A stretch of DNA of 64,000 nt from Gekko japonicus (taxonomy: Eukaryota). Shown piece by piece: positions 12,001 through 18,200 of the stretch (position 1 is its first letter; every line of letters starts with the position of its first letter). Position numbers: made by a program. Location of the stretch: NCBI RefSeq assembly GCF_001447785.1, contig NW_015162475.1, positions 434,001 through 498,000 on the forward strand, read 5' to 3'.

Positions 12001-15000
12001 GAATCATTTCAAGTTAGATACCACTCAGTATATAAATCTTAGAAGCAGGGCTCCATTCCACTCTCCTTCCACAGACACAAATGCAGCTCATTCAGCTACT
12101 GAGATTCTTAGTAGAACACAAAGCAGAAAATTGCAAGAAACATTGAGATAAAGGCAAGTAAGTTCTTTAATTTTTATCTTCTTATTTAACAAGTGTAAAG
12201 AAATTAATTTTTGATGGCAAATGACACTGAAAAAGATACCTCTGAAGAACAGAAAAATCAAATCCTCCGAATTTGATCCAAATAATTGCAGTCAAGGAGC
12301 AAGGGAGGGAGCAAGGGTTAAGGAGAAATTAACTATTTTTTGATGGCAAAGAACACTAAAACATATCTTTGAAGAAGAGAAACATCAAACAGTCCAAATA
12401 ATACTTTTTTAAAAAAAGTTACCATTTCAGTTAACAGTCAACATATCAATTAAAAAAAAAGAAACTGATCATTATACCTGCAGTGGTGGTCCCTCATGCT
12501 GCATCAAATTACTTCAAACATGTTACAGGGTAAAACAAATTCTAGATGACAGCTTTTAGTCTAGTCTAAGTAGGGTTGCCAGAATCTAGATACATTTTTT
12601 ATTTGTTGGCTTCTTGTAAACCCTTATGTCCATGTGTGCATTTTGGGGCGGGGGGACAGAATATAGGCAATAGGGTCCTAGGGGAAGTATCTGGACATTG
12701 GTGCTGCACCCAGGACGCAAGCAGATCATGTCTTCATTTATAAAGCAATACGCATGTTCTCAAAAACTGTAAAAACTAGTACCAAGAAAGGTCTCAAAGC
12801 ACAAAATTCACCAGTTCACAATAATTTGCTCACTCATTTTATTGAAACTGTCAATTTTGCACATGGATTTCTTCTCATCCACATTTCTTCTCATCCCACT
12901 TATATCAATTAGAAGATTTTGGCAAAAGATGCCCAGTCCCATCTGACTGCAGAGAATTAGGAGGACAAAGAGATAATTTCTAAGGCCCACGGAAGCAAAA
13001 CTTTCACTGATTTTACTTAATGGATACTAAGATACAGATTCTAAACGTATGTACCAGAAAGTACAGAACAAGGTTTATGAAACTGCAGTGAACCCCCACC
13101 TAGCCATTTATTAACTTTTCTTTTGGGCATAATCGACATTTAGCAGGTGTTTCAATTTTCCAATTACTCTTACCAATCTGAATTTAAACTCACCCAGCAA
13201 GTACAAAGCTATTGCAGTCTCCCCACTGAAATAAATGGGATTAGAGGAAAGTAACTCTGCATAGGAATACACATTGAAAGAAGTGCCTTAAATGGCAAGG
13301 TATGACCAAAATGTGGTTGAAAAAGCAATGAAGTAGTTGGGGCTTTTGGAAAGCTGTGTTTTACTTTGCCTTACTCAAGTGGTGGTCTGAATAAGAACAA
13401 GCTTGATTTTGGAAAGATGTGAGGTGCATAGCTTTTTATATTAAAACTGTAATCTAAATTTTCCTGGTACCATTTCAAAAATGGGGAAAACCTCAGATAA
13501 TATTATGAAGCTGTTGTTTATCTAAAATATCATAAGGTCCCCCACAAACTATTCTATTGGGCAAAGGCATGTTATTTGGGACAAAGTATAGTATATTAAA
13601 GTTCAGACCAAATCTGGACTTCATAAATCTTTAAATACAGTTTAATTCTATTTTCCATATCTATCTTATGAACTCAAAAGCTGCCAAATTTCATTTTAAA
13701 ACGTCAGTTTGAATACTAGTCAACTAAAAGAAATAGTAAGAAAGAAAGAAAGGAGAAAGAATGATGTCTTTTGAGCCCTGCTGAGCAAAACCCCACAGAA
13801 GGCCCAAATCAGTCCTGTAAAGCTGAAGTCTCTCTGCTAAAGTCACTGTGCAATCCTACAAACATGTTCCTGGGAGTAAAGCTTATTGAATAGAGTAGGA
13901 TTCTGAGATCGGTTTAGGATTGCACTCAGAAGACTTTTTTAACGTCATAAATTTTGCTATTCTATTATGTCCATTTCTAGAGTTACTATGGATGCCAAAC
14001 AGTTACTAGGCACTAGATTTATCTTTTACCTTTGAAAGGTAATTATTTATATTTTGCTTCATGTATTCCAAAATTTCAGTATGGGTGTCTTAATGAAATA
14101 TTCAAGGAACTATAAGATAACATACAAATTAATAATTACACAATGACACCAGAAAGAACAAAATAATTGTTCCACAGCAAATTCCAAAAACAAGTCATGC
14201 AATAACCTTTTATTAAGACCAGGGCTATTTTGGGGGCGGAACGCCCCAGAACGGCATTCCAGCTGGCTTCCAAGCCCGTCCCTCCCCTTCCCCTCCCTCC
14301 AGAGGAGGCTCTGACTTTGGCGTTGGGGACAAGCAGCCCTCCTTGGTGAGCGGCGGCGGCAGCAGGAACATCACTGCCGTCCAACCCAGCAACCAATCTG
14401 GGCACCCCGCACCCTCCCACCCAGCCCTGGCGCAGAGGGGGAGCATGCAGCACTGCCCTGGGCTGGTTCTGCCCGCGCCAGGGCTCTGGAGCATGTCTCC
14501 CTGGCCTCCCCAGTCCCCACCACCCTGACGCCTCCCTGCTGTCTTGACCCACCTCTCCGGGGGCCACACCGCACCACTGGGGCCTCTGCCCGACTCTGGC
14601 CAGCCCCTGGCTTGGCAGTCCAGGCAGCCTTGATGCTTCTCTGGGCTGCTGCTGTCCTGCGCCTCCTTCTGAGCTAGCTCCTTCCTCCACCAGCTCCAAC
14701 TGCATTCGCTGCCTGTTGCCATTGCCCACGGACTCCGTGTCGCCCCTGGCGTCTCATAAGGCTGGGGGTTGACTTGTCTGGAGCTGGGGGGGGGTCGGTC
14801 AGGGGCCTCCTGGGCCCAGGAGGAACTGGGACAGTGCCCAAAAGGAGTGAGGGAAAGGAAGTCCAGGCACTGCCCTTGCTCTGGGTGGGTAAACAGCAGC
14901 TGGAGCGGAGGCGGCTGAACGCCAAGGAAGGATCTGATCTGATCTCTTGACAACAGAGAACAATTCACCTGGAGAAAATGCCCGGATTGGAAGGTAATAT

Positions 15001-15199
15001 TCCATAGTGTTATACCCCATTGAAGTCTGCCCTTCTCAAACATCCCCACCCCCAATCTCCAGCTATTTCCAGACCCAGCAAATGTACATAGCACCCTTTT
15101 ACTCATGGAAAGAACACTGTATGGTGCGTGATCCCAGAAGAATGCTCTACATATGGGGGGCATCTGTTTAATTTTAAAAAGCAAGCAGCTGTGTGATTT

Positions 15200-15279
<80 letters not shown>

Positions 15280-18200
15280 ATCACAAAATGTTTTGGGGTT
15301 CAGCAAAATGTTGAGTGGGTCAAAACCATGCCACTGTTTCTGAATGTGTTCCACCTTTTGGAACAATTACCATTTGAGCCAAGCTCCCTGCAGACACAAA
15401 GGTGATGCTTCAGTAAAGTGGAGGGAAGCTAAGACTCACTTTCAGGTTTGGGGAAGAAGAAATTTGGTATCAGGAAATACATCAGCACCTCTCTAAATAC
15501 TGAATCTCTCAAACCTTTCATACTTTGTGTTTTTAAGCTTACTTCAGAAACTATAATGGCTACCAATTTACAGATTATATACTCTTAATGTTTTTACCAT
15601 CTGCTGCTTCTGATCTAAGGAAACCGCAGCAACCATTTGACCTCAGACAACTTCTGGGGACGGGGACCCCGCCAGGGGCTTGCAAGACAAGTGAGAAGCA
15701 GAGATGGTTTGCCATTCCCTTCCTCTGCAGAATCTTCCTCAATGGTCTCCCTTCCAAGTACTGACTCTGCTTAGCTGCCAAGATTTGATGAGATCGGGTT
15801 ATATCATGCCAAAAGCAGCCATAGAGGCAGTCAATTTGAAACGGGGCTGTTGTGCTGAGAAAGGAGAGATTTACATTGAAAACTGCCCTCTTGGACGTTA
15901 GCCCTGACAGACAGACAGACATCTTCTCGTTGCCCTTGTTTTTCATGTGCAAGGGCTACCAGCAACCCAGCAAGGTAGGGGGCTGGTTTTGTTTAGGGAA
16001 GTGACACCTTCCCTTCCTCTGCACTGCTTCTCTTATACTAATTGGGGGTGTGTGTGTCAGAGCTTCATTTTAATGCTAAACTACGTGAGGTCTGAAAATA
16101 GATCCCCAATGCCATATTTCATTTTGGCCTTATATTTGAATACAGAGATAACAAGAAAGCTCTGGTGGAGCTTTGCTTCAAACCACTGGATCGTCTCAGT
16201 AGCTCTCTAGGGTTCCCAACCTCCAGGTGGGGGCTGGAGATCTGCTATTACAACTGATCTTCAGACAATAGAGATCAGTTTCCCCAGAGAAAATGGCTGT
16301 GTTGGAAAGTGGACTCTACGGCATTGTACCCCTGCTGAGGTCCCTCCCTTCCCCGAGCCCCACCCTCCTCAGGCTCCACCCCAAAAATCTCCAGATATTT
16401 CTCAAACCCACAGCTGGCAACCCTCTCTCTTACACACCTAGAAGCTTGTGATTCCTTAGTTACCTATACTGTTACAGCTTTCCCTTGCTCATGATTTTTT
16501 TCAGCTAGGCTAGTAGAAGAGAACCAGAAAGCTACATATTTTATTTTTTCTAGTATGTGAAAGGTAGCTGTCATTATCCAGTAGAGGTTGTAAGTCACTG
16601 ATGATGCATTGAACTGTTTTGAGTTGAGAGCTGCATGTGACTCTTTTGGGCCTGTCTTGGAAGAAGGCTCTCACATTTCTTTAATTCTGCAAACTATGTA
16701 ATGGAGTTGCTTGGGAGGGCATTTTTATAAAGCTTATAGAGAACAGGACTGTAGTCTATGCCACAGTGTATGCTATATATTATTGATTTGTTGTATGTTC
16801 TATCACACTCTTACAGCACTGTTTTCATTTTTTGTAATTTCATTTTCTGCATTACTGGACATAACATAACTTTTTTTTTGCATTTTTGTAAGCCTAGTCC
16901 TATTGCATTGTTTATTAGATCTCATATGCTATTTGATTACAATATTCTATGACATGTAATCCACCTTCAGTCTCAAGAAGAAAACTGGTAAGTAACTAAT
17001 GAAGTATGAATAAATAAATAATAAAGTAAATAAATAATGATGGGCTGACCACCACTGTTCTCATTTGCCCCTCCAATAAAAATTTTCTGGCTACAGGCTG
17101 TGTCTGGAAAGAAATGGGCAGAAAGACAGCTTCATAGTTGCAAGAAAGGGGAGAACAGTAGGGAAATTCTGCTGTAGCAATGTGCAGAGCACAACTGCTG
17201 CAGAGGAGCAAGTGTTACTGTTAATGTTACTTTTAAAATAAATTTAAAGTATGGAATTGATTTTTTTTTTTTAAAATAACGATTTTATTGGTTTTGTCAA
17301 AACCGTTTTGATGACAAGGTAAACAGAATAAGAAGCAAAAGGTGGGTGTGGCTGAATGACCACACTTCTGGCAACATGGGGGTGTGGCCTAATATGCTAA
17401 TAAGCTGTGCTGTTACAGGTGTGGCCTACTATGCTAATGAGTTTTGTCTGTTGGGTGTGGCCTATTATGCCAATGAGTTCCTGCTGGGCTTTTTCTACAA
17501 AAAGAGCCCTGATTAAGACCAACCAAAATAATGCAACCTAGCTTTCAAGTTCTTCAGAACTGGTTATCAGGCTAGATGTTAATTAAAAAGCAAGAGGTAG
17601 GTAGATATCTCTTGGGCCATGATTTTAAAGCCTTTTTCAGCATGTTGTATGGAATGGGAGGCTGACATTAATGGGCTCATGTGTATTACTTTTTGAATAC
17701 TGTAATCTAGCCATTAAAAGAAGAGATACTTAAGAGAATAAAAAGAATCCTAAGCAGAAACTAGGTAACGTTACTACAATTTGGCCTTCATGCACTTTTT
17801 ACTTAGTGCAGTGGTACTCACTCTATGACTCGGAGAGAGACCATAGTATAAATGTTTATGAATCCCTTTTGACCCAGCAGGGTATTGTTTAAGTCCATTA
17901 TGAATGCAGGGAACAAGGCATCATCAAAACTTTCAAAAAAGGAGAACCATGCATTCTCAAACATGTCACCATATTTACTCTGTGTTTACTCACATTGAGT
18001 TCTGCTACTTTTTCAATATAAATAGCTACTCAGACAACAGTTCTTCTCTATGAAATCACACTCCGTAGCATTTATACAGCTTTTTTCAGCACTTAAAGCA
18101 CTTCTCACATGTTGTCTTTTTATGACACAGCATCCCAGCAAAGTAGTATTCCTATTTAGAATTTTTATACCCCTGTTGTAGGGCAGGGTTGAGGTGGACA

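What the first reader, a model, noticed from the sequence alone, without database searches (positions are those of the whole stretch)
14220..17511. Pack-type hAT transposon carrying ~3 kb of captured genomic DNA
Seen: matching TIRs and a perfect 8-bp TSD (ATTAAGAC) 3.3 kb apart. The first ~50 bp and last ~170 bp match the short family member at 38237. The interior has no transposase and is a mosaic of a GC-rich block, a microsatellite, a decayed 5S SINE, MITE remnants, an L2 tail and unique-looking DNA. Inference: the interior repeats look more decayed than the pristine TSD, which suggests host DNA was captured and moved as a unit rather than accumulating by nested insertion. Pack elements are well known in plants and little described in reptiles.
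Basis: partly seen in the sequence, partly recalled or inferred. Interest (0 to 1): 0.75.

Follow-up and report, generated by a model that had tools for sequence, protein, structure and literature searches.

The report
Lizard hAT transposon stuffed with host DNA
A small cut-and-paste transposon in a lizard-type genome has about 3 kb of unrelated host DNA between its two ends, an arrangement already described for lizard and maize transposons of the same superfamily, and whether the whole package ever moved could not be tested here.

Summary
The structure is real. A 3,292-bp element (14220-17511) has 12-nt terminal inverted repeats (11/12 complementary). It is flanked by a perfect 8-bp duplication, ATTAAGAC, with a chance probability of about 2e-5. 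Its first 51 bp and last about 168 bp match two short family members in the window.

The 3,073-bp interior matches nothing else in the family. No transposase trace or protein similarity was found in the frames tested. It holds a 66% GC block, a microsatellite, two copies of an old unrelated MITE (one cut off by the GC block) and a weak 5S-like SINE. The "L2 tail" label was not supported.

The best reading is a non-autonomous hAT whose centre was replaced by filler host DNA through repair-associated template switching. A target-site duplication cannot separate "package transposed here" from "short element landed here and was filled in place". No donor copy lies within -14 kb/+46 kb. No gene fragment was detected, so the plant "Pack" definition is not met.

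Anolis hobo-N elements and maize Ds2/Ds-l4 are close precedents. No vertebrate genome was searchable, so the donor locus, other copies and the empty site remain unchecked.

The parts
14212..14219 (.). Left target-site duplication ATTAAGAC
   Evidence: one of only two + strand occurrences in the window, directly abutting the 5' terminus
14220..14270 (+). 5' end of the hAT-type element (TIR 14220-14231 CAGGGCTATTTT), homologous to family members
   Evidence: 78.4% over 51 bp to 38237-38287; the profile of 5' ends finds only the three copies
14272..14938 (.). GC-rich block of unknown origin. It has no family homology and no protein similarity in the frames tested
   Evidence: 66% GC, CpG o/e 0.33, TpG o/e 1.50; no protein hits in 3 frames; no convincing similarity elsewhere in the window (against the GC block at 20850-22050 the minus-strand score equals the best of 60 shuffles)
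14931..14945 (.). (GATCT)3 micro-repeat exactly at the junction of the GC block and the truncated old MITE
   Evidence: TRF, 3.0 copies, 100% match; one search shows the MITE family has a single TGATCT here
14939..15077 (+). 5'-truncated copy of an old, unrelated MITE family
   Evidence: 64.6% over 158 bp to 16254-16410 and 63.7% over 135 bp to 11118-11244. The first ~55 bp of the family are missing and the GC block stands in their place
15200..15276 (.). Compound microsatellite (TG)12(GA)27
15640..15817 (-). Decayed 5S-rRNA-like SINE. The head is 15719-15817; the body limit of about 15640 was judged by eye
   Evidence: RF00001, 23.4 bits, E 0.17, below the gathering score; no second copy of its body motif in the window
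16210..16423 (+). Full-length copy of the same old MITE family (termini GGGTTCCCAACC ... GGCAACCC)
   Evidence: 65.8% over 155 bp to 11060-11214
16955..17040 (+).
   Evidence: AATA repeat 17009-17037; similarity to the L2-type tail at 34140-34215 is no better than shuffles
17344..17511 (+). 3' end of the hAT-type element. It holds a 37-bp subterminal tandem repeat (17380-17479, 2.8 copies) and the TIR at 17500-17511
17512..17519 (.). Right target-site duplication ATTAAGAC
38237..38455 (+). Short family member, 3'-truncated (no 3' TIR, so its duplication cannot be checked)
62544..62754 (-). Complete 211-bp family member. TIR CAGGGGTCATTT, 8-bp duplication CTTTCTGT at 62536-62543 and 62755-62762, 65% GC, 11 CpG

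Best explanation
This is a non-autonomous hAT-superfamily element of a MITE-like family that has at least three copies in the 64 kb. Its central part has been replaced by about 3.07 kb of filler DNA copied from elsewhere in the host genome.

Inferred mechanism, taken from the literature and not shown here: a double-strand break in the element, or the gap left by its excision, was repaired by synthesis that began on the element's own ends. The synthesis then switched template to ectopic host DNA at least once. The GC block and the AT-richer, repeat-bearing remainder look like two different sources.

Shown here: both ends were integrated at this site in a single transposition event, which created ATTAAGAC on each side.

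Open: whether that event moved the finished 3.3-kb composite, or moved a short element that was filled afterwards in place. I rate these two about equally likely. The element encodes nothing recognisable. It could only move with a transposase supplied in trans.
For: Single integration event. The TIRs are 11/12 complementary, and a perfect 8-bp duplication abuts them with chance probability 2.0e-5.

hAT type. Both complete copies have 8-bp duplications. The terminus CAGGG fits the YARNG motif given by Novick et al..

The ends belong to a family, the interior does not. Window-wide BLAST gives E 6.9e-7 for the 5' end, and 1.7e-15 and 3.4e-5 for the 3' end. Positions 14271-17343 hit nothing in the window except an unrelated old MITE family. 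Family-end profiles find no internal termini in the interior.

No coding content was found. 0 of 44 frames reach a Pfam cut-off. Three frames of the GC block have no protein relatives.

The interior looks like pre-existing host DNA and not later insertions:
- It carries fragments of other repeats, one of them truncated at the GC-block boundary.
- The private divergence of the two interior MITE copies is 0.153 and 0.213 over 150 columns, and 0.193 for the copy outside the element. The hAT ends show 0.057 (44 columns) and 0.133 (79 columns).
- The 66% GC block sits at a locus of 35-38% GC, which points to an origin elsewhere.

Precedent. Anolis hobo_AC and the hobo-N families, 1.3-3.4 kb, carry filler genomic DNA with older repeat fragments. 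Maize Ds2 and Ds-l4 do the same.
Against: No donor copy was found. None lies in the window, and the genome could not be searched. "Copied from elsewhere" therefore rests on structure and precedent.

The age contrast is only about two standard errors. It rests on three copies per family and on short alignments that are ambiguous in register. Private branches are upper bounds on copy age.

The short members' own interiors are also GC-rich (62544-62754 is 65% GC) and differ from one another. Part of the GC block could therefore be diverged family sequence, although no significant similarity was found.

Only frames of 40 aa or more were scanned for transposase remnants, and 10 of the 54 were left out.
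Confidence: 0.65

Rival explanations
1. The 3.3-kb composite was assembled at another locus and then transposed here as a unit. ATTAAGAC was made by the composite's own integration. Further copies with other duplications should exist.
For: In the one lizard studied in detail, composite hAT elements of 1.3-3.4 kb with filler DNA holding older repeats are multi-copy, with 16-689 copies per family. No donor lies within -14.2 kb/+46.5 kb. In animals, 57% of in-place cases have the donor within 15 kb, and multi-copy cases always have distal donors. Four of five multi-copy animal cases had parental copies above the genome's GC level, and this element carries a 66% GC block.
Against: There is no second copy in the window. 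Only 4 of the unique animal Pack-TIRs (1.4%) were multi-copy in Tan et al.. Only 51 bp of family sequence remain at the 5' end. No gene fragment was detected, so the plant Pack definition is not met.
Confidence: 0.35
2. In-place filling. A short family member of about 210-260 bp inserted here and made ATTAAGAC. Later a break inside it, or abortive repair after excision, copied in 3 kb of ectopic DNA. The composite never moved.
For: Tan et al. concluded that most single-copy animal Pack-TIRs arise this way, including in genomes without active transposons. Most of a short element's length is retained: 51 + 168 bp, against 211 bp for the complete copy. This fits an internal break better than loss of a whole centre. 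The ends look old: there is 0 CpG in the 3' 168 bp.
Against: No donor lies in the 60 kb around it, against the cis bias of that mechanism. The filler is 3,073 bp, against a median of 224 bp in that survey. The filler seems to come from two sources.
Confidence: 0.3
3. Serial nested insertions and small rearrangements enlarged a short element after it landed. No capture took place.
For: The interior does contain other repeats: two old MITE copies, a 5S-like SINE and a microsatellite.
Against: The identified repeats cover only about 0.6 kb of 3.07 kb. One MITE copy is truncated, with no room for its own duplication at the GC-block junction. The interior MITE copies are as diverged as the copy outside the element. 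The GC block and about 1.8 kb of unique sequence have no repeat identity in the window.
Confidence: 0.08
4. The interior is the family's own sequence. This would be a long non-autonomous or decayed autonomous member, and the short copies would be its deletion derivatives.
For: Short members differ from each other internally and are GC-rich. Long hAT elements that carry foreign DNA exist in lizards.
Against: No transposase or hAT dimerisation domain appears in 44 frames. Fragments of unrelated repeat families lie in the interior. The short members' interiors show no similarity to it.
Confidence: 0.1
5. Two independent half-elements flank ordinary local DNA, and the 8-mer matches by chance.
For: None beyond the fact that the family is frequent, with three copies in 64 kb.
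Against: The chance of an 8/8 match at the two defined junctions is 2.0e-5. The two halves are complementary, one 5' and one 3', in the same orientation, and each is cut at an internal point.
Confidence: 0.01

Closest known systems
Anolis carolinensis hobo_AC and hobo-N1 to N15 non-autonomous hAT families (Novick et al. 2011, PMC3014272; section 8 and discussion passages read)
   Same: These are lizard hAT elements with 8-bp duplications and short (11-nt) TIRs. [quoted passage not shown] The authors use the same older-repeats argument for capture over nested insertion.
   Different: The terminus differs: TAGGCTTG... against CAGGGCT... here. None of the 37 TIRs in their Table 1 matches. Those families are shown to be multi-copy and young (0.2-1.2% from consensus). 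Here a single copy is seen, with ends about 6-13% from the local family node. The BovB reverse transcriptase in the window is closer to named Podarcis and Varanus proteins (85-86%) than to named Anolis proteins (77-78%), so the host may not be Anolis.
Maize Ds2 and Ds-l4 elements (Du et al. 2011, PMC3260210; abstract and section 19 read)
   Same: Both are hAT elements with 11-bp TIRs and 8-bp duplications. Terminal family sequence encloses unrelated filler DNA that is mostly non-genic. The proposed origin is replication errors during repair of excision breaks.
   Different: The host is a plant. Modal length is about 1 kb. A few carry identifiable gene fragments with a known donor. Mobility was tested genetically.
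Animal Pack-TIRs (Tan et al. 2021, PMC8277862; passages and supplement files 4, 6, 7 searched)
   Same: Two pieces of one TIR element flank 100-5,000 bp of non-element DNA. hAT is the commonest carrier, at 208 of 370.
   Different: Their definition requires a unique parental copy of at least 90% identity, which could not be tested here. Their median insert is 224 bp, against 3,073 bp here. Their scan found 0 in the one lizard genome, where only 77 TIR elements were annotated.
Plant Pack-TYPE elements, including Pack-hAT (Gisby and Catoni 2022, PMC8903248; passages read)
   Same: TIRs, a duplication of the superfamily's length, and no transposase.
   Different: That class is defined by a BLAST hit to a coding gene. 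By their scheme this element falls in the third group, "non-Pack-TYPE", because no coding similarity was found.

Membership tests
hAT superfamily (non-autonomous member) | 8-bp target-site duplication | tested here: met
   ATTAAGAC flanks 14220-17511. CTTTCTGT flanks 62544-62754. That is 2 of 2 complete copies.
hAT superfamily (non-autonomous member) | Short TIRs with terminal motif YARNG | tested here: met
   The termini read CAGGG, with 12-nt TIRs matching 11/12. The motif definition comes from Novick et al..
hAT superfamily (non-autonomous member) | An autonomous partner that encodes a hAT transposase and has matching termini | not testable with these tools
   No hAT transposase was recognised among the window's frames of 110 aa or more: 27 of 39 were scanned here and 4 more. 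No vertebrate genome or repeat library was available.
Pack-TYPE (packFinder definition, plants) | TIRs plus a duplication, and no transposase hit | tested here: met
   Of 54 frames of 40 aa or more, 44 were scanned and none reached a Pfam cut-off. The 10 dropped were three that straddle the left flank and seven of 41-42 aa.
Pack-TYPE (packFinder definition, plants) | Interior has significant similarity to a host coding gene | tested here: not met
   There are no Pfam domains. Three frames of the GC block have no protein relatives. The test is incomplete: the host's own gene set was not available, and only three reading frames of the interior, all in the GC block, were searched against the protein databases.
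Pack-TIR (Tan et al. 2021 definition, animals) | Both flanks cover at least 10 bp of the termini of one TIR element, and the insert is 100-5,000 bp | tested here: met
   The flanks are 51 bp and 168 bp. The insert is 3,073 bp.
Pack-TIR (Tan et al. 2021 definition, animals) | A unique parental copy of at least 90% identity that is not flanked by the element | not testable with these tools
   None lies within the window. The rest of the genome could not be searched.
Mobile (multi-copy) composite element | Further copies of the same composite with different target-site duplications | not testable with these tools
   There is no second copy in the 64 kb.
Filler-DNA hAT (Ds2 / hobo-N type) | Family termini and subterminal repeats enclose sequence unrelated to other family members | tested here: met

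The most novel reading that the evidence does not exclude
The element is one copy of a still-unnamed, multi-copy squamate hAT family that has packaged and spread a 3-kb host segment. The segment would include a formerly CpG-rich, promoter-like or exon-like GC block. That would be a transposition-competent Pack-type element in a squamate outside the Anolis hobo lineage, with a cargo more than ten times the animal median. The young, CpG-rich 211-bp copy at 62544-62754 suggests the family may have been active recently.
Probability: 0.2. Interest if true: 0.45.

Novelty: new member of a known kind. Interest (0 to 1): 0.25.

Why it matters
If the composite is mobile, it shows that a second lizard hAT lineage can shuttle kilobase-sized host DNA, including other repeats and a GC-rich segment, around the genome. 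That is a route to segmental duplication and regulatory shuffling. A 100-genome animal survey found none of these in its only lizard genome, where just 77 TIR elements were annotated. If it is a one-off repair product, it is an ordinary scar. In both cases it warns repeat annotators that the two hAT ends 3.3 kb apart belong to one insertion. It has no consequence beyond genome annotation and transposon biology.

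Tried and rejected
- Donor copy in cis. Self-BLAST of 14100-17650 against the window (word 9, E<=1e-3; word 7, E<=0.05) found none.
- Paralogous empty site for the flanks. None was found at the insertion point.
- More family copies or internal termini, using nhmmer profiles. Only the three known copies appeared. The next best hits had E 0.46 (5' profile) and 2.2 (3' profile).
- GC block as family sequence. BLAST against the two short members gave a best E of 0.26. Rejected as unsupported.
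- GC block related to the other GC-rich block at 20850-22050. Plus-strand score was 16 against a shuffle mean of 15.4. Minus-strand score was 19, equal to the best of 60 shuffles, and the alignment is a 10-mer followed by noise. Rejected.
- GC block as a CpG island. CpG o/e is 0.33, so it is not one now. The TpG excess of 1.50 fits decay from a CpG-richer state, but this is not proof.
- GC block as coding sequence. Three protein searches were negative.
- Six-frame read-through of the interior against Pfam.
- L2 tail identity. Not supported.
- Second copy of the SINE body in the window. None.
- Bacterial promoter/terminator scan. Not applicable to this genome and uninformative.
- Host species from the BovB reverse transcriptase. 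It is squamate-like, but the species was not resolved.
- Literature search for squamate hAT gene capture. The results were noise, because "hat" matches "hatchling".
- Three-copy branch decomposition of ages. Only suggestive, and the alignment register in the tandem repeats is uncertain.

Full report
**What is there**

Reading 14100-17650 shows an element of 3,292 bp, 14220-17511. It begins CAGGGCTATTTT, and the reverse complement of its end reads CAGGGCTCTTTT, an 11/12 match.

The octamer ATTAAGAC lies immediately outside both ends, at 14212-14219 and 17512-17519. These are the only two + strand occurrences of that octamer in the 64 kb. From the window's base composition, an 8/8 match at two fixed junctions has probability 2.0e-5. 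The two ends were therefore joined to this site in one integration event. The rival "two half-elements plus a chance 8-mer" is close to excluded.

**Family**

I confirm the following:
- 14220-14270 matches 38237-38287 at 78.4% over 51 bp, window-wide E 6.9e-7.
- 17397-17469 matches 38374-38445 at 84.9% over 73 bp, E 1.7e-15.

That copy stops at about 38455 and lacks the 3' inverted repeat. It cannot vouch for the last ~40 bp of the big element, and it has no checkable duplication.

It is a complete 211-bp element on the minus strand at 62544-62754. Its TIR is CAGGGGTCATTT, and it has its own perfect 8-bp duplication CTTTCTGT. It matches 17465-17511 at 76.6% over 47 bp and 17344-17411 at 72.9% over 70 bp.

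Two of two complete copies have 8-bp duplications, and the termini fit the YARNG motif quoted for hAT by Novick et al.. I accept the hAT assignment, although no transposase is available to confirm it.

The 3' end carries a 37-bp tandem repeat, 2.8 copies at 17380-17479. Profiles built from the three copies' ends find nothing further in the window and no hidden termini inside the big element. This removes support for the model in which two neighbouring elements are mobilised together (described in PMC8903248).

**Interior (14271-17343, 3,073 bp)**

Nothing in the interior matches the rest of the window except an unrelated old MITE family.

What each part is:
- A 667-bp block of 66% GC (14272-14938), at a locus whose flanks are 35-38% GC.
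  - Its CpG o/e is 0.33 and its TpG o/e is 1.50. It is not a CpG island now, though it may once have been richer in CpG.
- A (GATCT)3 micro-repeat exactly at its right edge.
- A 5'-truncated copy of the old MITE (14939-15077), whose missing ~55 bp are replaced by the GC block.
- (TG)12(GA)27 at 15200-15276.
- A 5S-rRNA-like stretch on the minus strand, 15719-15817. It scores only 23.4 bits, E 0.17, below Rfam's gathering score of 38.
- A full copy of the old MITE at 16210-16423.
- About 1.8 kb with no match in the window.

Against a clear L2-type tail at 34140-34215, the local score was 6 and the shuffle mean was 6.9.

**Coding content**

- Of 54 stop-to-stop frames of 40 aa or more, I scanned 44 against Pfam. 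The 10 dropped were three that straddle the left flank and seven of 41-42 aa.
  - None reached a curated cut-off and none hit a transposase family. The few sub-threshold hits include four on the frame that the microsatellite encodes.
- Three frames of the GC block were searched against large protein sets, with no hit.

No gene fragment and no transposase remnant were found. Heavily broken remnants cannot be excluded.

**How the interior got there**

Nested insertion is a poor fit, for three reasons:
- The identified repeats cover only about 0.6 kb of the 3.07 kb.
- One repeat copy is truncated at a junction with non-repeat DNA.
- The two interior MITE copies are as diverged as the copy outside the element. 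Private branches are 0.153 and 0.213 inside and 0.193 outside, over 150 columns. The hAT ends show 0.057 (44 columns) and 0.133 (79 columns).

The age contrast is about two standard errors, uses three copies per family, and suffers from register ambiguity in the tandem repeat. I call it suggestive only.

The compositional jump of the GC block argues that at least that part came from elsewhere. The best reading is filler DNA acquired by template switching during repair of a break or excision gap. The same mechanism is proposed for three known cases:
- Maize Ds elements (PMC3260210, abstract and section 19).
- Animal Pack-TIRs (PMC8277862, passages).
- Anolis hobo elements (PMC3014272, section 8 and discussion passages).

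The mechanism itself is inferred, not shown.

**Did the package move?**

Neither point follows.
- A short element that inserted here and was filled later keeps the same duplication.
- At 9% per-site divergence, all 16 duplicated bases survive with P = 0.22.
- The 3' 168 bp have no CpG, while the complete 211-bp copy has 11.
- By eye in the alignments, both of that copy's alignable 3' CpG sites read TG or CA in the big element. The element is therefore not young.

For in-place filling:
- Tan et al. conclude that most single-copy animal cases arise without transposition.
- Most of a short element's length is retained here.

Against in-place filling:
- 57% of such cases have the donor within 15 kb. 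None lies within 14.2 kb upstream or 46.5 kb downstream.
- The insert is 3,073 bp, against their median of 224 bp.

For movement as a unit:
- In Anolis, composite hAT families of 1.3-3.4 kb with filler DNA holding older repeats are multi-copy.

I rate the two sub-cases about equal, 0.35 against 0.30.

**Comparison with known families, and novelty**

By the plant packFinder scheme this element falls in the "non-Pack-TYPE" group, because no coding hit was found. By the animal Pack-TIR definition, the flank and size criteria are met, but the parental-copy criterion cannot be tested.

The closest precedent is the Anolis hobo-N group. That group has a different terminus. None of the 37 TIRs in Novick's Table 1 is CAGGGCT....

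The window's BovB reverse transcriptase is nearer to named Podarcis and Varanus proteins (85-86%) than to named Anolis proteins (77-78%). The host is a squamate, and the species is unresolved.

Tan et al.'s supplement lists 0 Pack-TIRs for the one lizard genome, with only 77 TIR elements annotated, and 38 for alligator. The survey was therefore blind in squamates, but the phenomenon itself was already described for a lizard in 2011.

A search for "Pack-hAT" found 3 papers, of which 2 were listed. A search for squamate hAT gene capture returned noise.

I file this as a new member of a known kind.

**What stayed unchecked**

No vertebrate genome, repeat library or orthologous locus could be searched. 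The donor locus, other copies, the empty site and consensus-based ages all remain open. They are listed as decisive next steps.

Noticed in passing
62536-62762 (minus strand): A complete 211-bp member of the same hAT MITE family. It has TIR CAGGGGTCATTT, a perfect 8-bp duplication CTTTCTGT, 65% GC and 11 CpG. It looks much younger than the other two copies, so the family may have been active recently.
   Followed up: yes
17380-17479 and 38374-38445: The family's 3' subterminal region is a 37-bp tandem repeat with the core GGTGTGGCCTAnTATGCTAATGAG. From memory only, the ATGCTAATGAG part resembles octamer/TAATGARAT-type POU-factor sites. It could equally be the transposase binding repeat.
   Followed up: partly
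14931-14945: (GATCT)3 lies exactly where the GC block meets the truncated old MITE, whose family has a single TGATCT there. It may be a slippage or microhomology scar of a template switch.
   Followed up: partly
20850-22050: A second GC-rich block of 1.2 kb, about 66% GC, with CpG o/e 0.54. It has a 65-bp unit repeated twice (21442-21574) and long open frames without Pfam hits. Its base composition is almost identical to the block inside the element, but no significant similarity was found.
   Followed up: partly
7800-8200: The only true CpG island in the window: 59% GC, CpG o/e 1.11. It may be a promoter or first exon. The overlapping frames have no Pfam hit.
   Followed up: no
27205-28485 (+): A 426-aa open frame of a BovB-type LINE reverse transcriptase (RVT_1, E 1.4e-40). 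It is 85-86% identical to named Podarcis muralis and Varanus komodoensis proteins, 80-83% to named Bos proteins and 77-78% to named Anolis proteins.
   Followed up: partly
32794-34250 (+): A GC-rich LINE fragment. RVT_1 matches at 32794-33360 with E 1.2e-16, and the frame continues to 33947. A typical L2-type 3' tail and A-rich end follow at about 34150-34250.
   Followed up: partly
11060-11265, 14939-15077, 16210-16423: Three copies of an old MITE of about 210 bp with termini GGGTTCCCAACC...GGCAACCC. They are 64-66% identical to one another. The flanking dinucleotides are compatible with a decayed TA duplication.
   Followed up: partly
54449-54504 (+): A tRNA-like match just at Rfam's gathering score (29.5 bits against 29). 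It is probably the head of a tRNA-derived SINE.
   Followed up: no
45909-45939: A run of 31 N, either an assembly gap or masked sequence. It was left as it is.
   Followed up: no
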